Shown here one piece after another: positions 1 to 54,439 of a stretch of 64,000 bases of DNA. A program made the position numbers and the translations under genes. Position 1 is the stretch's first letter; every line of letters begins with the position of its first letter. This DNA is from Psammoneis japonica. Taxonomy: Eukaryota. The stretch is taken from NCBI GenBank assembly GCA_008632985.1, contig QPGO01000093.1:248001-312000 (forward strand), read 5' to 3'. The notes under the pieces were generated by a model. The model searched no databases. It saw nothing but the letters and a program-made list of their open reading frames with translations, and was not told the origin of the DNA.

Positions 1-48
1 AAGAAACTCACAAACTCATTTTCTCCTTGCGTCTCTCAACAGATTGTT

Positions 49-19952: not shown

Positions 19953-20012
<60 letters not shown>

Positions 20013-20849: not shown

Positions 20850-21617
20850 ATGTCCTCCGGTCTTATCAAGTGTGACTGTATCGAGTGCCAGTCTGGGATG
20901 GCAATGCTGGATCCTGTGAATGGCATGCATGTGGACTTTTGCCAGAACTGTGGCCGTGCCTATTGTTACGGCTCCGGACCAACCTATGTGTCCTGTCCCT
21001 GCTGTCATCAATGCCAACAAGGAAAGTGTCTGGAAAAAGAAGATGCAGAAGAAGAAGAAGCAGAAGTCATTGAGCCTCCCAAGAAGAAACAGAACGTTAC
21101 CAAAAAGGCGACCACTCCCAAGATTCCTCTGGCGGAACAGTCGGAGATTCGCATGGTGCGCGCCTCGTCGCAGCAGGGTGAGTTCTTGGCCGAGAATGTT
21201 CTAATCGACGACAATGGCAAGACCTTTTGGAAGTCAGAGCCTATGAAACGAAAAGACCGCAAGGAACAGTATGTGGAATTCCAACTGGCGCCCGACAAGA
21301 GTGTGCGCCGTTTGGGGTCGGTCTCCGTGGACGAGACACGCCAGGTTGGACTGTCGGACTTTCGAATCGACTTTAGCGAGGATGGAACATTGTGGAAGCG
21401 TGGCTACTCTCTGTGGGGAATATCGTCGGCGGGGGACGGCGTACGTTCCAATCATGATCTTGGAAACATTGTGGCTCGCTCGGTCAGGATTGTGTGCGAG
21501 AAACCGAGATCGTTCAACTCCGGAGTTGGCTTTGCGTTTGTGCAGTTCAATCGTGTGGCCAAAATGAGGGAACCAGGTGGCATCCTTTATGATGAAGAAG
21601 AGAGTGGTGACTATTAA
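20850..21617 (+). CDS. Protein with N-terminal Cys-rich Zn-finger-like region and C-terminal galactose-binding/F5-8-like domain
   Basis: CDCIEC...CQNC...CPCCHQC, then RASSQ...AENVLIDD...FWKS...QYVEF...FSEDGTLW...ARSVRIV. Confidence 0.65.
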   Translation: MSSGLIKCDCIECQSGMAMLDPVNGMHVDFCQNCGRAYCYGSGPTYVSCPCCHQCQQGKCLEKEDAEEEEAEVIEPPKKKQNVTKKATTPKIPLAEQSEIRMVRASSQQGEFLAENVLIDDNGKTFWKSEPMKRKDRKEQYVEFQLAPDKSVRRLGSVSVDETRQVGLSDFRIDFSEDGTLWKRGYSLWGISSAGDGVRSNHDLGNIVARSVRIVCEKPRSFNSGVGFAFVQFNRVAKMREPGGILYDEEESGDY

Positions 21618-31900: not shown

Positions 31901-32169
31901 GGTGAAACGAAAAAAGATTGTGCTGTTGCCAGAAGGTTGTCGCGCGCGGTTAGTCGGCGGTCATCCTAACAGGGGATCGAGCTCTAAAATACGAGCTCTT
32001 TTCGTTTGTTTGGCTGAGTACACGGACATCAACCAGCTTTTTGGATTTGCAGAGCAATCATCTCCACTCCACCCGTCAGACATGTACAAGGTCTGTTAAT
32101 TTTATTACGTCATTGTGGCAGCCAAGGTCGGTTGCAGGCCTGGGAGGAGAGAGAGAAAAAGCACAGGTC

Positions 32170-32346
32170 AGGTGCAAATCATCATGATGCTCTGCATGTT
32201 TCTTGTCCTCGCACCACAATGACGAAGCCCTGATGGAAGCCCAACTTTGCAAGCTTTTCACCTGAAACTGTCAAGAACATCCACTGAAATCAGAAGTTCC
32301 ATCAAACAGGGTTTTTCTTGTTCCACATTGACACATCTCAAACATG
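32170..32346 (-). pseudogene. Mutated copy of the ceramidase 3' coding end and 3' flank
   Basis: Aligns to ~54368-54539; GTRKTLFDGTSDFSGCS versus GTRKILFGGTSDFSGCS in the intact gene. Confidence 0.9.
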
Positions 32347-32369
32347 ACTTTGCAAGGAATGCAGGCAAT

Positions 32370-33249
32370 GGCAAGTTCCTTGTGTCCTTTGCAAGCAGAT
32401 GATTCCCCAACACATGGCAACTCTGTGCAAAGATTCTTGAGGGTCAATGGCTTGGTTCTTTGGTCACCTGTGGGCTGGTCTTGGAGTGCTTGCAAGAGCA
32501 CATGGCAAAGAGCCAGGCACCAATGTGTGTTGCTTGGTTTTGGGGCAAGGCTCAGAGGAGTGAGGCGGTGATCACTTTCTGCCTGTTGCTTCTGCTTTCC
32601 ATCTTGATTCTTGTGGCCTCAGCATTGGCAGAGCAAAAGGCGCAAGGTGCACCCATCCTCATCCAGTCATGGGTCTTTCCAGTTGTGAGATCCAAAGGTG
32701 GGTGCCACATCATCCATGGCAGCTGTGGCGGCCCCTGCCACCAGTGTTTCAAATTGTTCAGCCAAGTGTCAGCCTTCCTGCATGGCAGCTGCAAATGCTC
32801 TGAGGGTGTGAATCCGATGTTGTTGGGCAATGGTGAGCTTGTCCATGAACAGGTGGTCTTTGAGTTCAATTTTGCCAAGAACAACTTTTCCCAGTGGGTG
32901 AAAGCTGTGTCTTGCTTGTTCTTGTCAGTCTCTTTGGCATTTGCTTCTTGATGGGATCCTTTGGTGTCAAGGAGGAGGTTGGTTGGGAAACAACTTCTCT
33001 GGGCAGCAGCAAGATGCAAAAATTGTGATGAAGCAAAAGGGCAAGTGTGTCATCAGACAAGTTGCTGTCTCTCAACAGGCAGTTGCCAACAACGTTCATT
33101 TTGTCTCCAGGAGCTGTTGGCTGAAGGATTGACTGTTGGCACCCATCATGACAGATGCAAACTTGCTGGCAATTTCTGTCTGCTCTGGGTCAGTCTCTTT
33201 GTCAAAGTTGGATTTGCACAGCCAGCCCATGGTGGCAGTGCTGTTGTCC

Positions 33250-33285
<36 letters not shown>

Positions 33286-34200
33286 CACAAGAGAAAGGAG
33301 GGAAGTTGCCTTTGATGCAAGTGATCCACACACACATGACGCTGGTGATGAATTTCTTGGTGTTGAGGGTGAGACTGTGAACCAGGTGATGGGGGAGCTC
33401 CCAACAATGTGCTCAACCCATTTGGACATTGCAGCTGCCAATGCAGTGTTCTGATGTGCATCCAATCAGCAGACATGGGCGGGTTTGTGGCAAGTGATCA
33501 GGCTCAGGTTGATGCCTGGGCATGGATCATGCTGAGTCAGCACAGATGGCATGAGAAATGGAAAGCATGCAGGACAATGTGTCCAAGATGGTTCAGGCAA
33601 CCAACAAGCTGTTCAATCTCCTTGAAGGCACATCCTCCCCTCTTGACAAGTCTTTGGAGTTGCTTGGACCAGGCAATGAGTTTGTGTTTGGGAAGCACAG
33701 TGCGTGCATGTCGTTTGTTTGACAGTCAGCCAAGGGCTGTCCCAAGCACTTCAAGATGGTCTTTGGTGCAGAGCTTCTTCAAACAAGTGAGATCACCCCT
33801 GGCAAAATCTTTGTGAGGGTGAGCTGGTTGGCCAATGTGTGAATTCCCGGAAGTGCTGTTGCTCTTCTCTTCATTCAATGTTGTCGTCAATGTCAGGTGC
33901 AGCTGTCACTGTGTTGACAATGCAGACCTTGACTGTGCCCATCATGTTGTTTAGAGAAATGTTGACTGGCAAGTTGAGAGCTGGTGTGAATGGCACATCA
34001 TTGCTTTCAAAGCAGGGAGAAGGAAGGTGATCAAGTGTGGGGTTGTGGGGGACTGGGTTCCAGGACTTGCATTGAAGGATGTCATTGGACAGACCACACA
34101 CTGATTTGGAGAGATGTCACCCCACAGATTTGGGTTCAGCTTGCCTCTGAAGGCAAATCATCTAAGCTGACAATGGATTGCATGGTGCTGTGGCACTTTT
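32370..34200 (-). mobile_element. Degenerate DIRS/Ngaro-like tyrosine-recombinase retrotransposon (RT, RNase H and YR relics)
   Basis: RT: LSNDILQCKSWNP...PFTPA...GTVKV(C)IVN at the YIDD position, and EIEQLVGCLNH. RNase H: TAMGWLCKSNF and NVVGNCLLRD. YR: DP*LDEDG...GHKNQD, and IGAWLFAM(C)SC(K)(H)SK for the expected AMRSCEY. Confidence 0.75.
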
Positions 34201-34477
34201 CAAGTGGCCTTGGTGACGGGCCAACTTGTGGTCAATCTTCTGCAGCCATCTCTTGGCATTTGCGTTGGGCTGTTCCTTGGGTTGCAAATGGGAAATCCCC
34301 AAAAATGACTGATTGTGGTCATTGCATTGACTTCTGCTCAAACAATGAAGATCACAGACAAGTGCAAAAGCAATTGCATCAAACAGTTTGTGACCCTTTC
34401 TTTCAAAATGACTCTTGAATGTGTGAACATTGCATTTGGACACTTTTGCTCATTCTCACTCTGGAGCCAATTTGTCC

Positions 34478-34665
34478 CACTCTAGAGCTGTTTGACTCTA
34501 GAGAGAATGTCACACTCTAGAATCTTGGGTTCTAGAATGCCGCACTCTAGAACCATTCAATTCTAGAATGGCACACTCCAGAACTGCTCAACTTCAGATT
34601 GTCCTGTTGTGCAGCCATTTGACTCTAGAATGTCACACTCTAGAACTGCTCAACTCCAGATTGCA
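34478..34665. repeat. TCTAGA-cored tandem subrepeat array 1 (~15-17 bp period)
   Basis: Alternating TCTAGAATGTCACAC and TCTAGAACTGCTCAA-like units. Confidence 0.85.
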
Positions 34666-36239
34666 ACGGCTGCTGTTGAGTTTTGCTTGCATCTGTGGCA
34701 GCTGATGGCACCATGGGTTCCAGCTGATGGTGCCATTTTTTTTTACAGAGCTTGGCAACAACCAGGATCAGATTGCAGCTCAGCCAAGATGTGGTCCATG
34801 TTTGGGCACATGCTGCCATTTTTGAGCAATTCTTTCAAGCTGTTCCCATGGTGTTCACAAACCCAAGATTCCAGCATCTTGACAGATGTGACACACTTGG
34901 GCATGCAACATCAGGCTCTCATCAATTCAGGCTCAAAGACACTGTTGATGAAGGGTCTGGGGAGATGTTGCATGCTCAGGAACAAGAGCCACATGGGACA
35001 CAACATGGCAGCTTCATGTCTCCCCTTGTGTGCAGTGTGCCAAATGACAAATGAAGCAAAATTGAGCATGACATCATGTGCTGGCTTTTGACAACCTCAA
35101 ATTTCACCCAGGTCATTGGTGCCAGGTGCATTGTCCAGAAACAGCTTGTCCTTTTCAAAGCACAAATCACTGATTCCTGGAGCTCAAATGAGAACTTCAC
35201 CAAAATTTCCATTCTCCTGTGCGCAAGTGCAAAATCAACTTTGCCACTGACAGCCAAGGGGAGATGTTCACAAGCAACCACTTGATCTGCAACAGATGAC
35301 TTGCCATGCTGCTTCATTGAATTTGGTGTGAGCCTCTGAAAGGATTGATTGAGTCCTTGGCAAAGCAGTGAAATAGAACATGTGTTCCAGAAAGGAATCT
35401 AAACAGCAAATTGCTCTCATTCAATGGTGCTTTTGTTGCAGCATCGACAGTTGTGAGGACAGCAATGCAACATCCAATCAGAGTCAGAGCCACAAGAACT
35501 GTCAAGACAGAAAAGCAGTGTGCAGGTGGGAGAAACAGTGCTTCATCACTCTTGACAAGATTGCAAAACACAAGCAAGTGCATGAGCCGGCACCTTGCAA
35601 CAACAGAAGCCCAGACATGAGAAAAAGCACCCAAGAACTGACAAGGCAGCTGGCCCTGCGGATTTGGAGAGATCCTTGAGGACATCTCAACAACTGTCAA
35701 TCGCTGTCTGAGATGAGCAACAGACAAGTCAGTTAAAATGTGTGCACACTTCAGAGTGGCTGCATCTCAAGCATGCAAAACAATTTGCGCTCACCCCATG
35801 GATGCCCAAATCACCTTCCATTTCCAAAAGCTCTTCTTTTCCATTTTTGACCAACTCCATCATGTGTCTGTGTAGATCAGAGTGCACCAAAAGCATGAGA
35901 TCTGTTGCACACAGGCCAGCTTGCAATTTCAAGACACGCTGCCAGATTCAGAGTGACCATCCATCAGATTTCTGCTTGACAGAACAGCAGCACTGAAAGG
36001 TAGAATCCTTGCATCCATCCCATTCCCAACAATGGTGAAGCCAATGTTTGGTTGACATGTGTGGGGAGCATTGTTGGTGGATGATGTCACTGCACAATGT
36101 GCGTTGACAACATCAGGGCTGCTTGCAGGAAAAGCCTGCATTTGACCCCACTCAGCCTGCAACATGCATGGCACCAGAGGTGCAAGAATTCTCATCCACA
36201 AAAACAGCACAAGGAATGCTGTGAACCCCAGTGCACAAC

Positions 36240-36680
36240 CACAAATGCAAGACAGCCCACTCTGCTTCAAATGGGTGCCTTGACATTTCCTGTTGCAACA
36301 GCACAAGCAATGGTCAGTGGAGTCTGTGAGAATGTTTCTTTGATGTGCAGACTTCCAAGCCACAAACAACAAACAGCAGAGAAAACAAGCTCACGAGAAG
36401 GTGCAAGGCACCTCTTTGCTTTGCCAAAATGATGGATGCAATGCCAAGACAATTTGCACTTGACAAACTGACAGACATTTCCCATTGCAATTGCACAAGT
36501 GCTGGCAGACAGTGGAGTCCACCATGAGAACATTTCTTTGACATGCAAGCTGTCCAAGAAGCCACAAATCACAAAGCACAGAGCAGACAAGCTCACAAGA
36601 CATGCACGCCATTTTGCTTTGCTGAAATGATGGACATGACCAAGCCAATTTGCACTCGAGCAAATGGCAGTTGCAACAGT
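36240..36680 (+). repeat. Degenerate ~190-bp tandem repeat (at least 2 copies)
   Basis: gacatttc...ttgca...gcacaag...gtggagtc...gagaa...tttctttga...gccacaaa...aagctcac recurs at ~36280-36430 and ~36475-36630. Confidence 0.65.
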
Positions 36681-37636
36681 GTGGGACCCCTTTGAAAACA
36701 TTTGACACCAGGAAGGCACAATTGCCGGGGAACATTCATCCTGAGAGATGCCATTGCTGAAATGCCTGACTGCAAACACAAAGAAAAAAGATGAAGGTGT
36801 GAGCACAAACAGCAAATTTTCTCCATTGCCCACAGTGCTGCTGAACTTTGCTCACCACCACCAACAAAGCAGATGTCACAGATTGGAAAGGAAGCAGTGG
36901 GCTGAGGTGCCGCTGCTCTGCTTTGGACACAGAGCTGTCTGAAGTGCTTTTGACATGTCATGCCATGCTGTTCTGCACCACTTTCTCCTTTGTAGAAGTT
37001 CTTGCAGGTGCAGCATGTTGGGACAGGCAGAAGTGCCAGCATTGTCCACCTCATTGCATTGTTTTGTCATTCGTGTGTGTGCTGAGTGCGTGAATGGTGT
37101 GCGGCTGACAACAGACAATTCACACACCTCTGGCATGGCACAAGGTGTCATTGCTCCCAGACTGGAGTTTGCAGCAACCAGAACACCAATGGCGAGTGCA
37201 AATTTCAACAAAATTCCTCTTTCAGACCCTCTCTGTGAAAGAGAAATGAACTTAGAGTGCAGATGGCTTTTTTCTTAGCTCACAACATTTTTGTGCTTCA
37301 TGCTTTTGGCACAACATTGTTTTGCCAAAAACAGAAGCACAAAATAAAAAACAACATTGCTGACCCCTCACAGGCATGAGGAAAATTCCGGTGGTGTCAA
37401 GAATGGATGTGTTGACAGTGACAGCTGCTGAACTGCTGCAAAAGGGCCTCAAGCTCACCTGTTGTGACTGTGCACAGCACACAGCACCAATGCATTTGAA
37501 GTGTCAAAGACTTGAAAATTGCACTTGGCTTCACCCAGCAGCCTTGTAAATCCTTGGCTTTGCTGGCACATTGGACGTTGGCCTTGTGATCTTGCAAGTG
37601 GACAAAAAAAACAGCTCTGGAGCAGAGATCATCTCA

Positions 37637-37812
37637 GTTCTAGAATGTCCCACTCTAGAGCCATTTTAGTTCTAGAATGCCATGTTCCAGAGCTGTTCAA
37701 TTCTTGAGTGTCACATTCTAGAGCTGCGCAATTCCAAAGTGTCACATTCCAAAACTGTTTGATTCCAGAGTGTGTCACAATCCAGGCTGCATTTGTCCAC
37801 TCTAGAACTGCA
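37637..37812. repeat. TCTAGA-cored tandem subrepeat array 2
   Basis: Same unit family as array 1; several cores have decayed to TCCAGA. Confidence 0.8.
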
Positions 37813-39929
37813 AGCTGTCTCACAGAAGGGACAAATCATGCACAAACAAAACTTTCCCTTGTGATGCAACAAATGTCTTGCTTTTTGTTCCAAATCATGA
37901 CTTTTTTGTTGTTTGAGTCTCACAACAGTCTTTTGTGTTGGCGCTGGCAGCGTCATCATTTGCGCTGGCAGCAACCCACATTGTTGTGGTTGTCATGCCT
38001 TGAGAATCAACAGATCAAGTCGTTTCCTTTTTACAAACAAGTGCATCTTGAATGTGTTTGTCCAATGCCGAGAAGTCTTCGATCATGTCATTTCCGAAGT
38101 GTGTCATCTGGGCTGCCGTGTGTGTCATCATCAATCTTCTTGGTGGCGACACAAATGACACACTCTCACATTTTGCAGCAATGGTGTCTGAGCCGATCCA
38201 TGATGGTGTTGCAGCATGCTCTCGCATGCGTTTCACACCTCGCCGTTTGGATTGCACCTCTCTGTTGCACACATTGTGACAGAAGCAGGCATTTGCAGCC
38301 AAAACAACCAGTCCGTGTGACCAACCTGCACTCCCAAAATGATCTGGTGCCCTGGTTTTGCATGAAGTGGACTGCAGTGCTCAAGCCACTTCTAAGAAAA
38401 CCAGTGGGCTGTTCACTCTGTCTGCTTCCGACGCCAAATCCTGCACAGACCACCACCCAATGCCGCCGCAATGCCAAACCCAACTCTCCATCCGACCTCC
38501 AATGACAAATCCTGCACAGCCACACTTCGCTGCCAACATCCAACACCTCCTGCGCAGCTTCAACGAGACCTGCGTCAACGTGGTTGACTCCAACACCACA
38601 GACTGAAACGCCACCTGCTCCTGCCAGCACAATGCCACCTCCGCCATCAGCCATCAGCGATGACTCCAACATGCTGCCAGCGCAATCACCGCCAAGTGTC
38701 CCCACTTGCGCCAATGCCACTGACTGAATTGCCGGCTGCTCCAGATCCAGAGACAATGACGCCGCCTGCATCAACGTCACCATCAACAACGCCACCTGTG
38801 CCGATGCAAATGCAGCAACACTGCACACACCTCCCTCTGCCCAACCTCTGATGCTGTGAGTCCTGCAAAGACACCCACCCAGCACCGCCGCCATCACCGA
38901 ATCCATCCATGCAAAGCGCGGCCAAGCCCCTGGTGTCCCCTTTGACGAAATCACCACTGCCTCGGGCAACTCATGCTCGCTCCAACAAAGCACCCAACAC
39001 GCCACCACCTGTGTCAAGAAGACTCCATGTCGGACTGCACAACTGAACCAACATTTCTGTGGCGACTCTTGGCTGATGCGAGTCATTCAAAAATTTGCTT
39101 GAGCGTGTGTGGGACCCAAAACATTGCGAGTGTCGCACAAACACATGTCCCATGATTGTTTCATCCAAAGGAAGAAGCGATGTGAGTTTTTCATGTCGCT
39201 CGGAAAGAAAAAAATGTGAGGTGCTGAAAAGTTGAAAAGGTCATGAGATGACACTCTGCACAATGCCTCGCATGATTTTTCTGCAGCGGATGGAAGAACA
39301 GACAATGTGCCGGGCCCACAGCTGTGATGTCCCACCTTTCACGTGGTGTTCTCAGCACTGCACTCCCAGTCTTGCAGCCCCCCATTGCTGTCCAGTTCAT
39401 TGGCAACTTCTGTCAAAGCTGACATGTGCTCCTGTGTGTTCTGCTCTGTTTGCACCTTCTTGACACTCTTGTTGCAACTCTTGAGAGACATCTCTCTTGC
39501 CTCCTTGAGCTTGTCTGCTGGCTCCTGCACCAATCCTTGTTCTGTTGGCTGTTCTGAGTCTTTCTCCAACAAGGTGAATGTGCTCAAGCCATTGTCTGCA
39601 TCCTTGTGCACTGCCATGGCTGTTTCTGGCATGATGCTTTTTCACACAAGTCCTCCCTTCTGGTGACAGAGTTCCCTCATTGTTGACCTCAACATCACAG
39701 TCTCTCATCAAAGCACTCTCCTTGTTGTTGCTCTTCTTGTACTCTGCATGCCACACATCAACAAAGTTGTTTTTCATGAGCATGCACCCAAAAGCTTTGG
39801 CACACAACATGTTCATCCTCATGGGGTGCAACTGCACAGTCTTGTGCTTTTGTTTGGCATCCAACCATGCCATGCATTCAGTCAACAAGCATGTTTGTTT
39901 GTTTTGTTTTGCATGCCAGAAGGTGGGTC

Positions 39930-42900: not shown

Positions 42901-45285
42901 ATTGCCAACAAAAAAAGCCAGATGTCCTCTTTGTGCATGCCATCTCTGTGACTCAGATGGGGGCATCTTGCTTTTCTGTCCCCTTTGACTGGCTGGCCTT
43001 CTGGCCAACATGCCTTGCAACTCTTGTGCTGAATGATCAGCTGGGTTGTGCTGGTGTGTGACAGCTGGTTGTTTCTGAACCTGTGACATGATGCCTGTCT
43101 GGATGACTTTGTTGCCCATGCATTGGGCCCAAATCTGCACATCTGACCAGGTGCCTGGTTTTTGCATTCCTTGTCATCTTTGTTGGGAGCATGCACTGCA
43201 ACCCCCTGTCTCTCTGTTCTGCCATCTTTTTGCAGATGTGGCCTTCCACAGCTGAAATGCACCATGGTGAGTGTGGCTGTTGCAGACAGCAAAAATCCAG
43301 ACCTTGGCTCAGCTTTGCTCATTGACTCTGTCCAGCATCCAATTGGCACACATCAACTGCTTCCTGCAGCAATGACCAGTCAGGTTTGGAGGGGTGTGTC
43401 TAGCTTTTTCATCCAAAAACAGCTGGGCTCACATTTCATCACTCCGCTCCAGCACTCTGGAGTTGTCTTTGTTCTGACTCCCACTGCAACATCCTGACAG
43501 CATTGCTGCACTCAACCATTTCTGACAAAGGCCAGTTTTTCAGAGGTGCTCACATTTGCAGCAGAGCTTGGAAAACACCTTCATTGGGAGTGTGACATCC
43601 ATGGCAGCTCAGCTGGTGCTGAAGAGTGGTTGCTTGCAACAGAGTTGCCAGAGCAACTCAATCCAAGATTGGGTTGCCAGCCCCCAAAGCCTGTAAAAAT
43701 TCAAAGTGAAGAGCTGGCCCACAAAATGCTCTGCTTCTGGAGTTGTTGTTTTGAGAGCTTGGCAGAGCTCCAGACCCATTGCTGAGGGCAGTTTGCTCTG
43801 TTGAAAAGGAGCACTTCCAGCTTTGCCAGTCTCCAAGTCCATTGAATCTCCACAGTGCTAAAAAATGCAACACCTTCATTGAGCGAGAGTGGGCAGAGCC
43901 CAGAAAGGGCAGTGCTGCCTCAAGCTTTAAACAAGGGTTTTTGCATCTGTGTGGGCACCCCCTTTTTGTCATCAAAGCAGTTGCCAGTGGGCACTCCAGC
44001 AACTTTGGAACACCTCCTGTCAGCAACAGCAGCAACTCTGCATGGGTGAGGTGACCACATTGCACCTCATCACCCCACTCCACTTTGTGACCTTTGCTTG
44101 CATTGCACCTCTGCCTTTGCCCTCAAGTTGCCATCCACAGTGACCCACACCATCTGCAAAAACTTTCCTTGCTTCCTGGGCCTCTGTGGCTGGTCAAAGG
44201 TGTCATTCTGCCTCTTTGCAACCCAGGAGGGGGACACCACCTGGCATTTGCTCTGTCATCTCCATTGTCTGGCAGCACTGTCTGTTGGTTTCCCACACCA
44301 CTTGAAAGGGGCCAGCAGCCAGAAGCTTTCATCTGACCCAAGTGCTTGTCCAGCAGCAGCACACTCTCTCCCTTCCCCCAACAGTCAACCGCATGCTGAG
44401 TGCCACCAGAGTGCCACCACCTTCTTGCAATGGGTTGCCTTGCCACCTGCTGACATGTCTGGCAGATCTGCGCCATCCACAAATGTGTGGAAGGTGCAGC
44501 GCTCATTTTGTGTCTGTTTCTAAAAGGCCGCATTGCTTTGATTTTGCTGCTTTGTTTTTCACATCAGCTGTCATGATGTTTGACAATTGACTTCATGGCT
44601 GGACACAAAGGCAAAGTTTTGAAAAGTCAAAAACCAAAGTTTTCTGGGCCAATTTTGACAATTTGAGGTAACTCATTTTGAAAAATGGGCTCTTTGGAGC
44701 TGCTCTGAGATCTTTTGTCTTGGGCATCGTGTGCCACAGACCACGGGGGTTGGGAGAATGCACAATTGTCTGTGTGGCTGTGGATCTTGCAATGGGTGGG
44801 CCTTGATCTGAGCTGAGGGCATCAGATGTTCACCGGTCATTTTGTGCACACATGCGCACAAAACAACAGACTGTCTCTGTGTGCCTCTGGAGCATGCCAC
44901 CCAGAGGCTCACTCCACAACTTCTGAGCTGCTGGTTGGAAGCAGTGCCAAAGGAGGCAAAAACAGCAAAAACAGCCAGTGCTTCTGCAGAGCCTCGGGCC
45001 AAGCCTCTGCCAAGTGAGCATGGGGCAAGTGACAAGCTGGGGCAGCCACCCACAGCTTCAAAGTGTGGCTTTGCTGTTGTGTTGTGGCAAGCGTGCTGGT
45101 GCTGCTCTGACCCAGACCATTGCGCCACTTCATTCATTTTTTTGACATCTCATGCACTGATGTCACTTTGTGAGCCATGCATCCATTTTATTGCTTCAAA
45201 TCTTGAAAAGTGTCTGTTTCATTTGGTTTCATGCGTTTGTTGTGTTTTGTTTGAAAATTTCAAACGGCATGGCATTTTTGAAGCC
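39930..45285. repeat. Copy A of a ~5.4-kb directly duplicated unit, with an internal tandem duplication (39997-40415 / 40418-40860)
   Basis: Collinear matches: 39930-40230 with 45750-46050; 41630-41985 with 46070-46400; 41985-43570 with 48370-50070; 44970-45285 with 50440-50710 plus 51290-51415. Confidence 0.8.
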
Positions 45286-46759
45286 ACCATGCAAACCACA
45301 TGCTGGTCATGGTGCACAACCAAGTCACAGGGCTGGAACATGTCAGCATGATGTTCCTTGCACATGACAGAATGCAAAGGCACAGCAAGTTTCCTGCCAG
45401 GAAAGATGGGAAGCTGGCTGGTGCTGGCATCAGCAACATCTTGGAAAGCCCTCCTCAATTAAGAGCACCAGGCATCTCATGGCTGTGCTGATTGTGTCAT
45501 GTGAAGACACACACATTGATCTGTTTTCAGCACCCTGCAAACAAGAATGCACAGCCAGGGATGGGGTGACACACTCTCAGCTTCCAGGGCACACAGGGTG
45601 CTCAAAACCACAGAGCTTCTTGGACACCTCTGTGCAATCAGAGATCCATCCAGCACAGAAAATCAAACACCCAGGTCAGGAGACAGATGTTGGGTCATGC
45701 CTGTTTTGACACACAAAAAAATCCAGCAAAGTCTGAACCCATGTGGCAGTCAACTTTTGCTGGCCCTCAGATGGAAATGCAGAGTGAGGATGCCTTGCTG
45801 ATCTGTGCAGTGCCCTTGAGACAATGTCAAACGCACTTGCCTGCTGGAACATGGGAGGCTTGTGAAGCATGCAAGAGCCATGTGACCTGATCAGCTGTGC
45901 AACAAGCAAGCTGGCTTTGGACAGCTCTGTTTTCTGTGGTCACATTGGCGCAGCTGCAATTGCTGGAGTTTTTGTTGAAAGAAGAGCTCATTGTGCATCC
46001 TCTGCAACTGGCACAGGAGTCATGGGGACTGGTGCTGCATCTCACAGCCTTCCTTGGTTTTGGGGTCATCCAGCGCACAATCAACCCACAGCACAACAGC
46101 AACCCTGTTAAAAGAGTTGCCCAAATTTGTTGAACAATGCTTGCTGCCTGTCTCTTGCCATCACATGAGACATTTGAGATCATGGTGTGTGCGCGGTTGA
46201 AGGGGCCAGTGTGCTTCAAGTGCACAGGCACACTTTCCGGCAATGCAGAACTGCAAACTGATGCAAATTGTCTTGATTTTTTCCTTGCGCAGGGGCTTCA
46301 TCCACAAAGGATTGCTTGAGAAAAAATCAAAGGGGTGGCTTTGCCGTGCTGAAAAATTAAAAAAAGATTGAAAAAGTTGCATTTCTTGCCCAAGAGAGAT
46401 GTTGCAGTTTCACAGCTTGCTGCCCAGTGTGCATTTGGTCTCACTGACCCCAAATTCATCATGTGGCTTTCAAACACATTCCAGTGCTGTCAACCTCTGT
46501 TGCCACATTGGCCGGGTGCAAAAGCCAAAAGGTGAGCACAAGACCCACTCAATCCAAGTTGCAAACGCAAATTTGCCACATTGATCACAATTGTCAATGT
46601 GTCTTCCACTGCAACTTTGTTTGTCTCTGTCCCACAAAATCTGCCTCCAACCCCAATGTTCCAAAACACTCCTTTGCACAAGCCATCAATCGACTGGCCT
46701 TGTGTGTGTCAAACACAGGAGGACAACACTTGGAATCCATGCCACAATCCAATGCCACA

Positions 46760-47900
46760 TCGACTGTTCCGCCAATTCCCATGGTCTGCATCATCCAACT
46801 CCATCAACAAATGACTGTTGTCAGGACAATCCTTTCTCACATGCCCAACCTCATTGTGTTTCCAGCATCCAGTCTGCTTCTTCTTCTTGTGTGCAAAACT
46901 TGTGCCTTCCTCAGGTTTTTTGTTGGTCCTGCTGGTGTCCAACAACCACCTGTGGTGCCTCCTTGGCTGAACTGGGACAAATGTCACCCCCCAATGTGAG
47001 CTGCTGATGAAGGTCTTTCAAGACATGCCAACATTCCTTGGCACCTTCCACTGGCATCACCGCTGACAAGAGCTTGTTCCTTTCTTTGTTCCAGGTGTCA
47101 CAGGCTTCCTTGCTGAACCCATCTTGTCTCTCAGCAATTTCTTCCAGGATGGTCCTGCCATGGGACATCTCTGCTGCTTCAGCCATGTTCACAAACCAAT
47201 TGTGATGATCTTGAAGTGCCTCTCCCTTGTCTTGACAAATGAGGGCCAACTGCTTCAAAGCCTTGACAGCCTGGGCATGCAAGTTTGTCTTCTCATTTGC
47301 ATCAAACAAGATTGACTTGAGAACATCCAGCAGTGCCGCCACTCCCCGCTCCTCAGCAACTCTTGCAAACTCTGCCACTCCTTCAATTTTGTGATGAATG
47401 GCCTTTGCACATTGCCCCACAATTGTGCTGAACACCCTCACCTTCTGCATCTTGCAGACCATGTTCTGTTTGGCACAGTGACCACATTGCTTGCCCCCAG
47501 ATTGCCTTGTCCTTCTTTGACAACATGGTGTCTCCCAATGGACAATCCAGATCTGTTGGCATGCTCTCCTGCCTCACAGATGCCAACACCTGCATCTTGT
47601 CTGGCCCAAACATTCTTCCAACAACACTCAACAATCTTCCTCATGGTTTCCATGTGACCTCTGCCTGTCATCCTAACTTGGCAATGGTGTCATGCACCCA
47701 CTCCTTCAAATCTTTTGTGCTTTTGCACTCAGCTGTGTCCTTGCCCATGTTTTCTGGGACTTGTGTTGGAGTTTTGCTGCTTGCCAACTGCTGCACACTC
47801 TGTCTTGCCAGCCCCAACATGGCCTCACCACACCCTCTTCAGCAGACCCTTGGCAGCTTCTTTGACAGCAAGGCCCTCAGAGATTGTTTCTTTGCCCTCA
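46760..47900 (-). mobile_element. Ty1/copia (CoDi-like) gag relic
   Basis: KVRVFSTIVGQCAKAI..KIE...LLDVLKSI...Q..GE.LQD(HH)NWF, followed by a degenerate zinc knuckle CWKHNEVGHVRKDCP. Confidence 0.7.
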
Positions 47901-47943
47901 TCCAGCTGACTCGCTCATCACAATCTGCCAACACAAGGCATGC

Positions 47944-48033
47944 CTTTGGATTCCTGTCAACTTCCAGCTTTTCCTTTGGATTCCTGTCAATCTCCCAGCC
48001 CTTGACTTTGGATTTCTGTCAACTTCCCAGCCT
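47944..48033. repeat. Three ~30-bp tandem repeats (CTTTGGATTCCTGTCAACTTCCCAGC-like)
   Basis: Read directly; lies at the 5' side of the gag relic. Confidence 0.85.
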
Positions 48034-50726
48034 TTCAACAACACCACTCCTTTGAGTGTAATGCCATGCCTTTTTAGCTTGTCCCATGTTGTCAGAGTTT
48101 CACAGCTTGCTGACCACCACATGTGTGTTTTTGGTCTTGCCAACCCCAAACACACCATGTGGCTCACAAACACATTGCTGATGGTGCTGTCAGCTGCTGT
48201 TGCCATGTTGTGCAGAAGCAAAATGAAGTGAGCACAAGACCCACAAGAACTCAACCAGAGTCATGAAAGCAAATTTGCCACATTGTCCACAGTTGACAGT
48301 GTGTCTTGCTTCCATTGCAACTTTGTCTGTCTGTCCTGCAAAAAGTGCCTCTGACCACAATGTTCTGACAAAAGAAAGCAGTGCCCTTGATGATGATGGT
48401 GCTGTGCATTGCTTTGAAAGGCACCAGGCATCAGATTCAAAATCAAACAGGGGACCTGCTCTCTCAGCCAGCCAAGCTTCAGCACAATGCTGAAGAGCTG
48501 CTTGCTCTGGACACAGCCTGTGTCCAAAAATTGCAACTTCAGAAATGACAAAAAACCAACAAAATGGGAAATTACAAATTTGCAACAAACCCAACTTCAT
48601 GGTGTGAAACCATTTGGAAGGCAGCTTCTCCACAATCTCTGCTGCCTCATTGGGTGACTCTGAAAGCACCAAGCTGCTGTTGCATGGCTTTGTGCCCATC
48701 AGGTCCTTTTCCTTCACCAAATTTGGACACCTGCTGCAAACCAGTCACTCAGCTCAGGACAAGTGGGCAAACCTTTCTTTCACAATCACTCAAAAGATCC
48801 AGCAAAGAACAGGTTTGGAAATTCCACCCCCTGCATTGGTGATTGGAAAGGTCAATCTTTTGCTGCACACTGCCACACCCGCAGACTGTTTTTTTGGGCA
48901 AAGAACTTTGTGCAGCTTGAGAAAATTGTCTCAGGATCAAAACCAGCATGAGGTCCTCTTCTTGGTGCCAAAGGCATTTGGTGGTGCACTGGAAAAACCC
49001 AACATTTCACAGGCTTGGAAAGACTGATGAAAGTTTTGCCAGTGCTGCAAAGGTGTTTGCACATGACTTGAGAACACCAAATCATCAATTTGGATGACAT
49101 GGGTTGCCCACATGTTTGGCGTTTGGCGGTTGGGTCTCAATCCAATGGACTGACTGTGTCTCCTCCCTGCACCCATCAGATTGAAGTTTGGATCATCACA
49201 ATCATTGCAGAAACATGTGGTGCACAGAGCCAGATTGCAGCCACAACCCAACTTGGTTTGGCCTCAGCCAGACAGTTTTGTGTGTTTGTTGCATGGCTCA
49301 TGCAGCAGCAAGGCAGTGTGGCATGCTGCAGATGCAGCCTGGTTTGATGCAATGAGGAGCAAGATCTTTCCTCTTCCCTGACAATTGATTGACCCCTCTG
49401 CAATCCAATGGAGCCAGAATCATCACAGCTGCAGCCAGCAGCCAGATCATCTTTTTGCAAGATTTCTCCATGACTCAGATGGCAGTGTCTTCTCTGTCCC
49501 CTTTCTTGACTGGCTGAACCTCTGGCCAACTTGTCACACAACTGCTGTGGATGATCAGCTGGATTGTTGCATGGCTGCCAGTTGCTCCTGAACCCACGGC
49601 ACATCTTTCTCAACAATTTGCTGCCCACGCATCATTGGACCCAAATCTGCCATCCAACTGAGTCATGGGGTGCTTTCATTGTCATCTTTGTTGAGGGTGT
49701 GCACTGCAAACCTCTGCCTCTGTCTTGTTGTCTTTGCAGATGTGGGTTCTCCACAGCCAACAAACACCAAACAGTGAATGTTTCTGTCACAGGCAACAAC
49801 CCTGACCTTGGCACAGCTTCAAGCACTGACTCTGTCCAATGCCCAAGTGGTCTGCATCAATTGCTTCCTGCCACACAATGACCAACCAGGTTTGGAGGGG
49901 TGTCCAGCTTCATCAAAAGACAGCCAGGTTCATGTTTCATCACTCCATCCCTGAGTGCTCCAGAGTTGTCTTTGTCCCATCTCCCGTTGCAACATCCGAC
50001 ATTGTTGCTGCGCTCAACTGTTTGTGACAAAGGCCATTTTTTCAGAGGTGCTCACCTTTGTGGCAGAGTTTGCAAAACAACTCATGCAGTCTGTTGGAAC
50101 ATTGGGGCTGGAGAGGCAGTTTTCACATGACAGAGAGACAAGCTGCAGCTTGAGATGTGCTGGCGGCAATTGTGGACAGCATGGCAAGTTTGGTGCACTT
50201 GCAGCTCAGATTGAGTTGCGGGTCTTGTGCTCACATTTTGGCTTCTGCACCCAGTTGACATGGCAATGACAGCTGGCAACATCTGCCAATGTGCTTGCAA
50301 GCAACGCAGCTGGGCGTCACAGGAGGCGAGACCAAACGCGCGCCAGTTGGCAAGCTGTGAAACCCCGAAACTGTCAGAAAACATGGCGCCATCCTCCCAA
50401 AGTTTGTGAGAGCTCACGCAGCTGGCAATGGCAACTCAACTGCTTTTGCAGAGCCTTGGGCCGAGGAGCTTCTGTGAAGTGAGTGCAGAAGTGACTGGCT
50501 GGGGCAGCCACCCACAAAAACTCCAAAGCATGGCTTTGCGCTGTTGTGTTGTGATGTGCACACTGGTGCTCTGACACCACCCAGAGTTGTGTGTTGAAAG
50601 CAAAGCCAGGTGCAGCTGAGCTTGCCACAGTCGCCAGCCACAGAAGGCTGGGCAGTTTTTGAGATTGAAGTGGAGCGTGTGCACTGGCAGACCTTTGCAC
50701 CACTTTGTTTTTTGCTTTGCTTGCTA

Positions 50727-51286
50727 CCCTGCACAAGAAGTCTGGAATGTTGAACTGCGTAGAAACCGTCGTAGAATCAGCACCAGGGTGGTCAAAAAAG
50801 TCTGGAATATCCGATTTTGACAGAAAACACGTAGAATCTGGTGTAGAGTCAGTACCAGGAATATCCAGAAAAACACGAAAAATCCCGCTATTCCAGACTT
50901 TATTGGCTTTTCTGGTACAAATTCTACCCTTGTGTCCAGCTTTGGCCAAAGTTGGCCACATATCCGGGTTTTCCTTGGTACATATTCAGCGTACATTCTA
51001 CGCAGTTGGCCAACATCGACTCGAGCTCCGATGACTGGTTTCAGATTTTGCGGCCGGCTCGCGCGAATTTTTCGTTTTTCGACGTTTATTATGCAGCATT
51101 TCTGTTTGAAAATGTCCACAATTATGTTGTATTTTATTCATTATATATATGTTAGCACTCGCCACTACACGTTTGTACCAAAGCACACGTAGGGCAGATC
51201 GCTTCACCGAGCTCGATTCGAACGAAATCCCGTTTAACTGGACTCAAGGCTACGCAGGAATGATATTCCAGACTTTTTGTATCGGG
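50727..51286. mobile_element. MITE with TA target-site duplication (Tc1/mariner-type TSD) and ~35-bp imperfect TIRs
   Basis: Left end TA|CCCTGCACAAGAAGTCTGGAATGT...TGCGTAG; right end reverse complement CCCGATACAAAAAGTCTGGAATAT...TGCGTAG, followed by TA at 51287-51288. Internal AAGTCTGGAAT subrepeats. It splits sequence homologous to 45110-45285. Confidence 0.8.
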
Positions 51287-51736
51287 TAGCTTGGCATGCA
51301 TGTCACGCACTGACAGATGATGTCACTTTGCAGTGCATCCGTTTCATCGTTTTTATGCGTTTTGTTCGTTTGTTGTTTGTTGTTTTTGAATTTCAAACGG
51401 CACGGCATTTTTGAATTTTGAAACTCGCCCGCCCGGGAATTCCCTCGCATGCTTGCATCATGAATTTATTAGAGAATGATGTGGTGGTAATAAACAATGA
51501 CACGTTGACTAAGGTGGCTGGATCTGTATGTGACATCCATCATTTTTAAAAATATAAATGAAAACGACACACCTCTCGCATCATGACCGTTGTGATCTGC
51601 AGTATCAGTTTTCAGTCACACTCTGTTATGCTATGCTAGCTAGCTAGACTGCAGCAAACGTCAACCTCTTCATGCTGCAAGCAAACGTTGGTTGAGCAAA
51701 CTGCTCACAAATTTCAAGTCTCTCGAAATCAAACCA

Positions 51737-54048: not shown

Positions 54049-54439
54049 GCATGGCCAGAATGACAACATGCTGTAACGATAATGTCAGTTTCAGATGGAC
54101 ACACGACATCAAAACATCAGTTAAACTAAACCAGTCGATACCAATAACACAAGCTATTAGCGCTCTTTGCACTGAATATACGGTATATGAGTTCCTACTT
54201 CTGAACTCGCAAGCACGTTTTAGTTGAAGAGGAAGATAGATACCGGTAGCACTAGAGATAGAGCGCGCGCCCGGGCTCGGAGGGCGGACATCTTCAGGTT
54301 GCGTTTGTCCGAAGCCTTACTAGCAGCCAAACACTGAAAACATGAAGAAGGCTATCAACCTTGTACGGTGCTAATCATCACGTATCACGTTGCAGGTTTG
54401 TCTTCGACACAATGGTGAAGCGCCATTGGAGAACCGACA

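What the first reader, a model, noticed from the sequence alone, without database searches (positions are those of the whole stretch)
32110..51450. Candidate RIP-like genome-defence system that erases TpA (TA->TG/CA) in repeated DNA
Seen: TA is nearly absent over ~19 kb. By eye I find no TA and one CG in 42181-43380 (1200 bp), while flanking genes use both freely. TG and CA are in excess, translations lack Tyr, stops are mostly TGA, and the left border is sharp (last TA cluster ~32085-32107). The same signature marks ~1-3130, ~10310-13000 and ~17950-20560. Established: fungal RIP and 5mC decay are C->T processes, and RIP creates TpA, so neither can remove it. Inference: a region-targeted A:T->G:C mutator at TpA acts on both strands of transposons and duplicates. 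Candidates are a TadA/ADAT-like DNA adenine deaminase or error-prone patch synthesis by a Pol eta-like polymerase (known A->G bias at WA). I know of no description of this in diatoms.
Basis: partly seen in the sequence, partly recalled or inferred. Interest (0 to 1): 0.97.

Follow-up and report, generated by a model that had tools for sequence, protein, structure and literature searches.

The report
TpA-erased repeat islands in a diatom
A diatom genome carries islands of dead repeats and gene copies in which nearly every TA and most CG dinucleotides have been turned into TG or CA, the mark of a TA-specific mutation process so far reported only once, in an unrelated alga.

Summary
In 32107-50722 there are 49 TA where about 666 are expected (o/e 0.04). 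CG o/e is 0.18 and TG/CA about 1.83. Four smaller islands show the same pattern.

It is real DNA. Contigs built from an accurate-read public run reproduce the TA-free sequence.

It is mutational and arose in place.
- A relative (P0117) of a decayed gene at 11449-12469 has 13 aligned Tyr. The window keeps none: 5 are His (CAY) and 4 are Cys (TGY).
- Diverged internal copies differ by CA<->TG at 79 adjacent double sites, against 8 for the AC<->GT control.
- The two LTRs of one inserted element show 8 such sites.
- The TG+CA excess (0.082) equals the TA deficit plus the CG deficit (0.081).

Two processes are superimposed: TpA->TpG/CpA on either strand, and CpG decay.

The signature matches TpA-only hypermutation seen directly in Bigelowiella natans mutation-accumulation lines (bioRxiv 10.64898/2026.01.13.699255). 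My searches found nothing for diatoms.

"RIP-like" triggering by duplication is not shown: two MITE-like inserts inside the islands are untouched. Pol eta is disfavoured because AA is unchanged. The enzyme is unknown.

The parts
32107..50722 (.). Main TA-erased, CG-poor island
   Evidence: TA 49 in 18.6 kb (o/e 0.04), CG o/e 0.18, TG 1.85, CA 1.82; 666 TA expected; 0 of 93 stop-to-stop ORFs reach a Pfam cut-off; little or no codon periodicity.
50723..51290 (.). MITE-like insert of normal TA/CG content inside the island
   Evidence: 26-nt terminal inverted repeats at 50723-50748 / 51265-51290, 85% complementary. TA o/e 0.5-0.6. The segmentation border at 50724 coincides with its first base.
51291..51450 (.). 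Tail of the island: TA-poor but CG-rich
   Evidence: one TA (51354); no CG deficit, TG+CA excess 0.041; homologous to 45160-45300 in unit 1.
1..1094 (.). TA-erased segment holding an ADP-ribosyltransferase-domain remnant (248-655 +)
   Evidence: TA o/e 0.10, CG 0.65. Pfam ART E 8e-7; the Tyr of the Y-R-G motif in 3 of 3 aligned PDB chains is His here; the codon is CAC.
1100..1493 (.). MITE-like insert of normal composition that splits the first island
   Evidence: inverted repeats 1098-1123 / 1470-1495 (88%). read directly: 6-bp direct repeat CTAAAG at 1094-1099 and 1494-1499. TA o/e 0.97.
1534..3182 (.). TA-erased segment
   Evidence: TA 5 (o/e 0.05), CG 0.65, TG 1.75, CA 1.62.
10745..12887 (-). 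TA-erased segment: decayed, frameshifted copy of a conserved gene family of unknown function (ORFs 11819-12532 and 11005-11895)
   Evidence: 43 relatives, best E 4.5e-24. P0117 aligns in two frames (48% over 225 aa, 43% over 129 aa, E 1e-74); 13 Tyr -> 0 kept, CAY 5, TGY 4. TA o/e 0.08, CG 0.64.
17830..20863 (.). TA-erased segment of unknown origin
   Evidence: TA 8 (o/e 0.05), CG 0.29, TG 1.97, CA 1.78; no Pfam match at cut-off.
32171..32345 (-). Fragment copied from the neutral ceramidase gene, 64 bp inside the left border
   Evidence: 174 aligned bases, 137 identical to the exon at 54367-54540. Parent has 7 TA, copy has 0 (TG 2, CA 1, AA 2, TT 1, gap 1). Parent has 9 CG, copy has 2.
54367..54540 (-). 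Parent ceramidase exon, normal composition
   Evidence: Ceramidse_alk_C E 8e-36 for 54443-54805(-), with upstream exons to 57222; 7 TA and 9 CG in the aligned 174 bases.
39927..45290 (.). Unit 1 of a diverged tandem duplication
   Evidence: colinear matches to 45749-51430 at 71-86% identity, offsets 5.5-6.5 kb.
45749..51430 (.). Unit 2 of the tandem duplication, carrying two later insertions
46400..48370 (-). LTR element inserted in unit 2 after the duplication (LTRs 46406-46661 and 48096-48365; gag-like remnant 46709-47573)
   Evidence: TG...CA ends, flanking AGAGA/AAAGA, empty site in unit 1 at 41977/41990, 8 CA<->TG discordant sites between the LTRs; weak zf-CCHC (E 0.061); periodicity 29; depth 540-1225 against about 62.
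41153..41228 (.). Core of a very high-copy repeat (second copy at 41492-41567)
   Evidence: identical 75-base core; summed k-mer depth 53,098 in 40838-41504 against about 62 for single copy.
34482..34660 (.). 31-bp repeat array with TCTAGA palindromes that still hold TA (second array at 37639-37806)
   Evidence: Read directly: 13 TCTAGA; variants at the TA are 7 with CA and 2 with TG.

Best explanation
The flagged block and four smaller segments are silent islands of dead repeats, transposon remains and decayed gene copies in a diatom nuclear genome. Two context-specific transition processes have rewritten them in place.

(1) TpA is converted to TpG or CpA. This is an A:T->G:C change at the A of 5'-TA-3' on one strand or the other, chosen about equally. 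It has run almost to completion.

(2) CpG is converted to TpG or CpA, as expected from deamination of methylated cytosine. It has run to different degrees in different segments.

Shown here: the loss of TA, its products, its occurrence after duplication and insertion, its strand symmetry, its sharp borders, and its independence from CpG loss.

Inferred: the process is the one measured directly in Bigelowiella natans.

The agent is also inferred. My estimate is about 0.35 for a DNA-acting adenine deaminase of the TadA/ADAT2-3 kind, whose natural tRNA target A34 follows U33 (recalled, not tested). I give about 0.1 to oxidation of T at TpA followed by mispairing.

Targeting looks regional, set by chromatin or position, rather than triggered by sequence duplication. 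It is also not currently acting on everything in the region, because young inserts are untouched.
For: Polarity:
- P0117, a relative with normal Tyr content (16 of 371 aa), aligns to 12469-11449(-) at E 1e-74. Of 13 aligned Tyr the window keeps 0; 5 are CAC/CAT and 4 are TGC/TGT. By comparison 164 of the 311 other aligned residues are kept (Fisher p 8e-5).
- The same alignment has I->T 2, L->S 2, L->P 2 and V->A 2, all of which are TA->CA inside codons.
- In a 17-sequence alignment, 5 Tyr-majority columns are all lost.
- The ART remnant has His (CAC) where 3 of 3 aligned PDB chains have Tyr.
- The ceramidase copy has 0 TA where the parent has 7.

In-situ origin:
- 13 internal paralogue alignments (3451 columns) show 79 adjacent CA<->TG double differences, against 8 AC<->GT and 11 AT<->GC (binomial p 1e-6).
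- The two LTRs of one element, identical at insertion, have 8 such sites.

Budget:
- TA deficit 0.0340 plus CG deficit 0.0473 gives 0.0813; the TG+CA excess is 0.0819.
- In each of the five TA-poor segments and the tail the excess is larger than the CG deficit alone.
- Simulated erasure of both dinucleotides on background DNA gives CA/TG 0.1141 against 0.1146 observed. Erasing CG only gives 0.0975.

Specificity: AA/TT is unchanged.

Real DNA: eight single-copy contigs of run X1 (k-mer depth about 62) cover 10.9 kb with 37 differences. Among the displayed difference rows, none on these contigs puts a TA where the window has TG or CA.

Precedent: in B. natans mutation-accumulation lines, 230 of 231 mutations in two regions were A->G or T->C, all at TpA, and 124 TpA-poor/CpA+TpG-rich clusters were found genome-wide (Results read).
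Against: - The ancestral composition of the islands is unknown. The simulation predicts the 12 other dinucleotides poorly (r 0.27; AT is lower and GC higher than simulated), so the exact budget match may be partly luck.
- In the ceramidase fragment only 3 of 6 aligned parental TA became TG or CA; 3 became AA or TT.
- CA<->TG discordance alone cannot separate TA ancestors from CG ancestors.
- No de novo event was seen. Only 1 of the 24 displayed window-versus-X1 differences inside the island is TA<->TG, against 8 at CpG (40 of 497 rows were shown).
- Two MITE-like inserts inside the islands are unmutated, so the process may be extinct, episodic or selective.
- X1 comes from the same sample as the likely source and its library type is not on record.
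- No enzyme, methylation or chromatin data exist for this genome.
Confidence: 0.8

Rival explanations
1. Base-calling or assembly artefact: a modified base at TpA is misread as G or C in long reads, and the real DNA has TA.
For: The platform of the assembly is unknown. The only public holder (X1) is from one sample and study, and its library is not on record.
Against: X1 gives clean 31-mer contigs up to 315 kb at depth about 62, which needs accurate reads. Eight single-copy contigs match 10.9 kb of the island with 37 differences. Of the displayed differences on them, none restores a TA. A misread could not give His/Cys codons at Tyr positions split 5:4, nor CA in one copy and TG in the other at 79 homologous sites.
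Confidence: 0.02
2. Native composition: the islands are foreign or selfish DNA that never had TA (for example avoidance of a TA-cutting nuclease or of TA-targeting transposons), and only CpG decay happened here.
For: No Pfam family in 93 ORFs of the main block. CA<->TG discordance could in principle come from CG ancestors alone. The origin of most of the block is unknown.
Against: Sequences of unrelated origin all lack TA. These are a host ceramidase fragment whose parent has 7 TA, a gene-family member whose relative has 13 Tyr at aligned positions, an ART-domain remnant, an LTR element and satellites. Young inserts in the same places have normal TA. The TG+CA excess is 1.7 to 3.3 times the CG deficit in the five segments, and the tail has no CG deficit at all.
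Confidence: 0.04
3. RNA editing followed by reverse transcription: ADAR-like A-to-I editing of double-stranded retroelement RNA (5' U preference) is fixed when the element is copied back into DNA.
For: An LTR element with a gag-like remnant lies in the block. ADARs prefer U before the edited A (stated in the Discussion of 10.64898/2026.01.13.699255).
Against: TG and CA are equal overall (1.85/1.82) and within the LTR element (111/114 and 108/112 per kb), whereas editing of one RNA strand would be asymmetric. The two LTRs diverged after insertion. Non-retro sequences are equally affected: the ceramidase fragment, the frameshifted gene copy and the tandem duplication. ADAR is a metazoan family (recalled).
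Confidence: 0.02
4. Error-prone patch synthesis by a Pol eta-like polymerase during repair in silent chromatin, with its A->G bias at WA motifs.
For: It would give A:T->G:C transitions on both strands and could be regional.
Against: WA includes AA. AA/TT frequency is unchanged between island and background (0.0794 vs 0.0800), while TA falls 14-fold. Tyr codons change but Lys and Asn (AAR, AAY) show no comparable directed loss.
Confidence: 0.04
5. Same mutational outcome by another chemistry: enzymatic oxidation of thymine at TpA (TET/JBP-type, giving 5-hydroxymethyl- or 5-formyl-uracil) that mispairs with G, or faulty excision repair at TpA, rather than adenine deamination.
For: Because TA is its own reverse complement, T->C on one strand and A->G on the other give the same products, so the sequence data fit equally well. 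The mutagenicity of 5-formyluracil is recalled, not tested.
Against: No direct evidence either way. The context bias of surviving TA cannot separate the two, because the affected T and A are the same base pair.
Confidence: 0.1

Closest known systems
TpA-restricted hypermutation of integrated viral DNA in Bigelowiella natans (Mettrop et al., bioRxiv 10.64898/2026.01.13.699255; outline, Results and Discussion read)
   Same: TpA->TpG/CpA only, on both strands. Regional, with clusters of TpA-poor/CpA+TpG-rich 1-kb windows. [quoted passage not shown] TE-type domains were enriched among their TpA-poor CDS, and a TE remnant is present here. Activity there was seen in only a subset of lines, and here young inserts are untouched.
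   Different: The lineage differs: a diatom (Stramenopila) instead of a chlorarachniophyte (Rhizaria). Erasure is nearly complete here (o/e 0.04, against 0.45 for their NCLDV region). It is coupled with CpG loss, which they do not report. No viral genes were detected here. No de novo events were observed here, only the fossil signature.
Repeat-induced point mutation (RIP) of fungi
   Same: Irreversible point-mutation inactivation of repeats and nearby DNA. Dinucleotide-specific transitions. Mutated copies diverge until similarity searches fail.
   Different: RIP is C->T, mostly at CpA, and it creates TpA, whereas here TpA is destroyed. RIP is triggered by duplication and hits both copies. Here the parent ceramidase exon and two multi-copy MITE-like inserts are unmutated.
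CpG decay of methylated transposons (5-methylcytosine deamination)
   Same: CpG->TpG/CpA. CG o/e is 0.18 in the main block. CpG sites make up 8 of the 24 displayed differences from the X1 contigs.
   Different: It cannot remove TpA. TA loss is uniform (o/e 0.04-0.10), while CG loss varies from about none to 0.18.
Deaminase editing of retroelements and viruses in animals (APOBEC3 on DNA, ADAR on RNA)
   Same: Context-specific hypermutation of selfish elements by base deamination. ADAR has a 5' U preference.
   Different: APOBEC is C->U. ADAR acts on RNA and would be strand-asymmetric. Here the process acts on DNA in place, is symmetric, and also hits non-retro sequences.
TadA/ADAT2-ADAT3 tRNA adenosine deaminases and their DNA-editing relatives
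   Same: The natural target A34 follows U33, that is a 5'-UA context (recalled). DNA A-deamination by amphioxus ADAT2 and an ADAT2 candidate in B. natans are cited in the preprint.
   Different: No such gene could be examined for this genome. ADAT2/3 is universal in eukaryotes, so its presence would not discriminate.

Membership tests
B. natans-type TpA hypermutation | Loss of TpA with matching gain of CpA+TpG | tested here: met
   TA o/e 0.04, TG/CA 1.83. The excess, 0.082, equals the TA plus CG deficits, 0.081.
B. natans-type TpA hypermutation | Changes are A->G / T->C at TpA, not other substitutions | tested here: met
   9 of 13 Tyr codons are now CAY or TGY and none is kept. AA/TT is unchanged. 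The ceramidase fragment is mixed, 3 of 6.
B. natans-type TpA hypermutation | Both strands hit about equally | tested here: met
   TG 1.85 vs CA 1.82. His 5 vs Cys 4. 79 sites resolved differently in paralogues.
B. natans-type TpA hypermutation | Confined to discrete regions with elevated rate | tested here: met
   Five segments with sharp borders among normal genes. The rate itself was not measured.
B. natans-type TpA hypermutation | De novo mutations observed across generations | not testable with these tools
   No mutation-accumulation or pedigree data. Only 1 TA<->TG among the 24 displayed differences from X1.
B. natans-type TpA hypermutation | Targets are integrated viral or foreign DNA | tested here: inconclusive
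   LTR element with gag-like remnant. No viral domain in 93+56 ORFs. Viral-contig scan with P0116 was empty. Host-like gene copies are also hit.
Fungal RIP | C->T at CpA (or another CpN) producing an excess of TpA | tested here: not met
   TpA is nearly absent and CpA is in excess.
Fungal RIP | Triggered by duplication, with all copies mutated | tested here: not met
   The parent ceramidase exon keeps 7 TA and 9 CG. Two MITE-like inserts with shared motifs keep normal TA. The duplicated fragment is only about 175 bp, so this test is weak.
Methylated-CpG decay | CpG depletion with TpG/CpA gain | tested here: met
   CG o/e 0.18-0.65. CG aligned to CA or TG in 38 of 42 non-identical paralogue positions. 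8 of the 24 displayed differences are at CpG.
Methylated-CpG decay | 5-methylcytosine present in the region | not testable with these tools
   No methylation data.
Pol eta WA-motif mutagenesis | A->G at both TA and AA | tested here: not met
   AA/TT 0.0794 in the island against 0.0800 in background.
ADAR-type RNA editing fixed by retrotransposition | Strand asymmetry relative to the transcript, and restriction to retro-copied sequences | tested here: not met
   TG about equals CA in the LTR element. LTRs diverged after insertion. Non-retro sequences are affected.

The most novel reading that the evidence does not exclude
TpA-directed DNA editing is a shared, ancient genome-defence pathway of the SAR supergroup, present at least in diatoms and chlorarachniophytes. 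It acts on silenced DNA together with CpG methylation and can run to complete erasure of TA. TA-free islands would then be its fossil record across algal genomes. Its agent would be the first natural eukaryotic enzyme that edits adenine, or its paired thymine, in nuclear DNA in a dinucleotide-specific way.
Probability: 0.3. Interest if true: 0.9.

Novelty: new member of a known kind. Interest (0 to 1): 0.72.

Why it matters
TpA-specific A:T->G:C hypermutation has been reported once, in a 2026 preprint on a chlorarachniophyte, and its enzyme is unknown. Finding its end-state signature in a diatom matters for three reasons:
- It shows the process is not a peculiarity of one alga.
- It extends the known targets from integrated viruses to transposon remains and dead gene copies.
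- It shows the process can proceed until no TA is left.

Diatoms are ecologically dominant, and several species are genetically tractable. A genome-wide scan of diatom assemblies could pick a model in which to find the agent.

It also matters for annotation. Such islands have almost only TGA stops, so they yield long spurious ORFs (up to 479 codons here). They also hide repeats from similarity searches.

Tried and rejected
- Whole genome: not held. No genome-wide scan, repeat-consensus building or search for deaminase/polymerase paralogues was possible.
- Pfam on 93 ORFs of the main block and 56 ORFs of the other islands: only the ART remnant passed a cut-off. A Bd3614-like deaminase hit (E 0.094) is at chance level.
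- Rfam at gathering thresholds: nothing. tRNA scan: nothing.
- Sequencing runs: no RNA holder was listed, so nothing can be said about expression.
- Protein searches: the gag-like ORF found nothing. The profile search with A3 returned only P0119, named "hypothetical protein".
- Viral-contig scan with P0116: no relative (the alignment query was unusable).
- Metagenome scans: the 27-base high-copy core gave 0 matches and P0119 gave no relative.
- Four-mer context regression to split TA from CG ancestry gave an implausible zero CG term. A dinucleotide regression gave a positive TA term in all five segments (0.58-2.17 background units) but was unstable when the CA/TG row was left out. I use neither as proof.
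- The 479-codon ORF at 40472-41911 is longer than all 200 simulations (maximum 473, 95th percentile 353). It has no codon periodicity and no homologue or domain, so I treat it as a by-product of stop-codon loss.
- UV photoproducts at TpA: considered and set aside. UV would mainly hit dipyrimidines, and the B. natans events arose in culture.
- GC-biased gene conversion: set aside, because G+C is not raised (0.49 vs 0.48) and only TA is affected.
- Earlier notes of this scan held only phage cases and did not bear on this finding.
- Supplements of the bioRxiv preprint (mutation tables with flanking bases) are closed, so its trinucleotide context could not be compared with mine.

Full report
**1. 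The observation**

- From 32107 to 50724 (18,618 bp) there are 49 TA (o/e 0.04) and 202 CG (o/e 0.18), with TG at 1.85 and CA at 1.82.
- At the TA rate of the surrounding genes, 666 TA would be expected (log10 P about -214).
- The stretch 42181-43380 has 0 TA and 1 CG, as stated. The last TA before the block is at 32106.
- Stop words in 32110-51450 are TGA 910, TAA 45 and TAG 56.

The same signature marks four other segments:
- 1-1094: TA o/e 0.10, CG 0.65
- 1534-3182: TA 0.05, CG 0.65
- 10745-12887: TA 0.08, CG 0.64
- 17830-20863: TA 0.05, CG 0.29

The four long background segments have TA o/e 0.50-0.61 and CG 0.96-1.04. The 439-bp island at 1095-1533 has TA 0.97 and CG 1.00.

So TA loss is uniform, whereas CG loss varies. 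At the far right end (51291-51450) there is one TA but no CG deficit at all.

**2. The organism and the setting**

No whole genome is held. The flanking genes are ordinary eukaryotic genes: CAP-Gly, astacin with a HYR domain, neutral ceramidase, nitroreductase, FAD monooxygenase and a Pol delta Cdc27 subunit.

The FAD monooxygenase finds its best named relatives in diatoms: Seminavis robusta 48%, then Nitzschia, Pseudo-nitzschia and Thalassiosira. The window is therefore from a diatom, not from Bigelowiella. None of the 113 listed relatives is above 55% identity, so no close relative of it is in the protein collection.

**3. Is it real DNA?**

One public sample holds the stretch. The contigs of run X1 have a k-mer depth of about 62 and reach 315 kb, which requires accurate reads.
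- Eight single-copy contigs cover 10,942 bases of the block with 37 differences (0.34%).
- Of the 24 displayed differences inside the block on those contigs, 8 are CpG against TpG/CpA, 1 is TA (window) against TG, and none puts a TA where the window has TG or CA. Only 40 of 497 rows were displayed.

The library type of X1 is not on record and it may come from the source sample. The artefact reading is nevertheless also excluded by the internal evidence below.

**4. Anatomy of the main block**

Self-comparison shows a diverged tandem duplication. Unit 1 is 39927-45290 and unit 2 is 45749-51430, at 71-86% identity.

Unit 2 carries two later insertions.
- *LTR element, 46400-48370.* It has TG...CA ends, flanking AGAGA/AAAGA, 256-270-bp LTRs, a gag-like remnant on the minus strand (weak zinc knuckle, E 0.061; codon periodicity 29), and an empty site in unit 1 at 41977/41990. 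It is as TA-free as its surroundings.
- *568-bp element, 50723-51290.* It has 26-nt terminal inverted repeats and normal TA and CG content. Its first base is exactly where the segmentation placed the island's border.

A second such element (1100-1493) has inverted repeats and a 6-bp direct repeat CTAAAG. It shares CGTAGAA/TTCTACG motifs with the first and splits the first island.

Summed depth in X1 gives the following picture:
- 40.8-42.2 kb is very high copy (up to 53,098 against about 62).
- 46.2-48.8 kb and 50.2-51.5 kb are roughly 5-20 fold.
- Much of the rest is single copy at 85% likeness.

Sixty-four bases inside the left border lies a 175-base fragment copied from the last exon of the ceramidase gene, which sits 22 kb to the right.

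No Pfam family reaches its cut-off in 93 ORFs of the block, and there is little codon periodicity. With almost only TGA left as a stop, long empty ORFs arise: the maximum is 479 codons, against a simulated mean of 263 and maximum of 473.

**5. Direction of change**

The best evidence comes from the island at 10745-12887, which still has codon periodicity.
- Its 297-aa ORF has 43 relatives in the 1.84-billion-protein library, best E 4.5e-24. Pfam sees only sub-threshold PcfJ-like matches in them.
- One relative, P0117 (371 aa, 16 Tyr), aligns to 12469-11819 (48% of 225 aa) and, in another frame, to 11835-11449 (43% of 129 aa), E 1e-74. The window copy is therefore a frameshifted pseudogene.
- Of the 13 Tyr of P0117 that align, the window keeps none. 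The codons are now CAC/CAT (His) 5 times, TGC/TGT (Cys) 4 times, and TTT, AAG, CGC and GCC once each.
- Of the other 311 aligned residues, 164 are identical (Fisher p 8e-5). Trp is kept 8 of 11, Gly 14 of 18 and Asp 11 of 16.
- Ile->Thr (2), Leu->Ser (2), Leu->Pro (2) and Val->Ala (2) are the expected products of TA->CA across codon positions 2-3.
- Arg is kept 8 of 19, with Gln 2, His 2 and Cys 1, the products of CpG decay.

Smaller pieces of evidence point the same way.
- In a 17-sequence alignment, 5 Tyr-majority columns are all lost in the window (Cys 2, Phe 1, Leu 1, Arg 1).
- The ART-domain remnant at 248-655 (Pfam E 8e-7) has His (CAC) where 3 of 3 aligned PDB chains have the Tyr of Y-R-G.
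- The ceramidase fragment has 0 TA where the parent has 7. The fates are TG 2, CA 1, AA 2, TT 1 and one gap, a mixed result from a small and old pair (79% identity).
- Two 31-bp repeat arrays keep 13 TCTAGA. Their variants at the TA are CA 7 times and TG twice (read).

**6. It happened in place, after duplication and insertion**

In 13 alignments of internal copies (3451 columns) there are 380 transitions and 177 transversions.

Among adjacent double differences, CA<->TG occurs 79 times. The mirror control AC<->GT occurs 8 times and AT<->GC 11 times (binomial p 1e-6 after allowing for abundance). A site that is TG in one copy and CA in the other must have been a self-complementary dinucleotide (TA or CG) that each copy resolved independently.

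The two LTRs of the inserted element were identical when it integrated, and they show 8 such sites in about 250 bases.

Where one copy still has CG, the other has CA or TG in 38 of 42 non-identical cases. For TA the figure is CA in 4 of 7.

**7. Two processes**

The budget closes. Against the background, the main block lacks 0.0340 of dinucleotides as TA and 0.0473 as CG, together 0.0813, and has 0.0819 too many TG+CA.

In each of the five segments and the tail, the TG+CA excess is larger than the CG deficit and close to the sum of both deficits. At 10745-12887, for example, the excess is 0.045, the CG deficit 0.018 and the TA deficit 0.031.

Simulated erasure on background DNA gives the following CA/TG values, against 0.1146 observed:
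- 93% of TA and 81% of CG erased: 0.1141
- CG only: 0.0975
- TA only: 0.0904

The fit for the other 12 dinucleotides is poor (r 0.27; AT lower and GC higher than simulated). The ancestors were therefore not background-like, and the exact match should not be over-read.

AA/TT is unchanged (0.0794 vs 0.0800), so the A->G change is specific to TpA.

TG and CA are equal overall and per kilobase (|asymmetry| at most 0.16), so both strands are hit.

**8. Context and timing**

With the TCTAGA arrays left out, 66 TA survive across the islands, and they are not a random sample (chi-square 77.8, p 4e-13).
- CTAA/TTAG: 19 observed against 5.3 expected
- TTAA: 10 against 2.5
- ATAT: 0 against 4.8
- ATAC/GTAT: 1 against 9.4

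By the base 3' of the A, relative survival is A 1.96, G 1.23, C 0.79 and T 0.29. This suggests TAT > TAC > TAG/TAA as targets.

The two TIR-bounded inserts have normal TA. The 6-bp target duplication of one, CTAAAG, still has its TA on both sides. TA erasure therefore largely predates them, or does not touch them. CpG decay seems still to be running (8 of the 24 displayed differences).

**9. What is known**

A full-text search found one matching description: Mettrop et al., bioRxiv 10.64898/2026.01.13.699255 (outline, Results and Discussion read).
- In mutation-accumulation lines of Bigelowiella natans, 231 of 302 nuclear point mutations fell in an integrated giant-virus region and a virophage region.
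- 230 of these were A->G or T->C, all at TpA.
- This occurred in only 11 of 15 lines.
- 124 clusters of TpA-poor/CpA+TpG-rich windows were found genome-wide, with TE-type domains enriched among TpA-poor CDS.
- An ADAT2 homologue is proposed as the agent.

The present islands pass their cut-offs by a wide margin (0.04 against <=0.43; 1.83 against >=1.52).

Four further searches for diatoms or stramenopiles with TpA, hypermutation or related terms found nothing relevant. The library lacks most subscription journals, so this is not proof of absence.

**10. Verdict**

Four corrections apply:
- CpG decay is a second contributor.
- A duplication trigger of the RIP kind is not shown, and the evidence leans towards regional targeting.
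- Pol eta is disfavoured.
- The phenomenon has a precedent in another SAR lineage.

This is a new member of a very recently described kind: the first in a diatom, and the most complete erasure seen so far. The agent remains unknown.

Noticed in passing
window 1100-1493 and 50723-51290: Two small elements with about 26-nt terminal inverted repeats and shared CGTAGAA/TTCTACG motifs. One has a 6-bp target duplication (CTAAAG). They look like members of one MITE-like family and are the only normal-composition DNA inside the TA-free islands.
   Followed up: partly
window 41153-41228 and 41492-41567: A 75-base core, identical in two nearby copies, lies in a stretch whose summed k-mer depth in run X1 is about 850 times single copy. 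It keeps several CpG and one TA (in TTTAAA). Its nature (satellite, SINE-like or other) is unknown, and an exact 27-mer from it had no match in the metagenome collection.
   Followed up: partly
window 34482-34660 and 37639-37806: 31-bp repeat arrays built around the palindrome TCTAGA hold 13 of the 15 CTAG-context TA left in all the TA-poor segments. Either CTAG is a poor target, or the arrays are younger or homogenised.
   Followed up: partly
window 11449-12469 (-) and proteins P0116-P0158: The decayed gene belongs to a conserved family of roughly 370-560-aa proteins without a Pfam domain (only sub-threshold PcfJ-like matches). P0117 starts with a signal-peptide-like N-terminus. Function and taxonomic spread could not be looked up.
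   Followed up: partly
window 248-655 (+): Remnant of an NAD:arginine ADP-ribosyltransferase domain (Pfam ART, E 8e-7) inside a TA-erased island at the window's left edge. It is cut by the window start, so its full extent is unknown.
   Followed up: partly
window 32313-32420 (-): Next to the ceramidase C-terminal fragment, the same reading frame shows a weaker match (18 of 36 aa, E 2e-5) to a different ORF on the ceramidase gene's strand (55673-55996), which itself has no Pfam match. The two matches overlap in the copy. The copy may be an internally deleted or processed fragment.
   Followed up: no
window 11959 (-): One Tyr position of P0117 is now CGC (Arg). Both bases of the TA changed, giving a new CpG.
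   Followed up: no
window 40472-41911 (+): A 479-codon open frame without periodicity, domain or homologue. It shows how loss of TAA and TAG produces long spurious ORFs that gene callers could annotate.
   Followed up: yes
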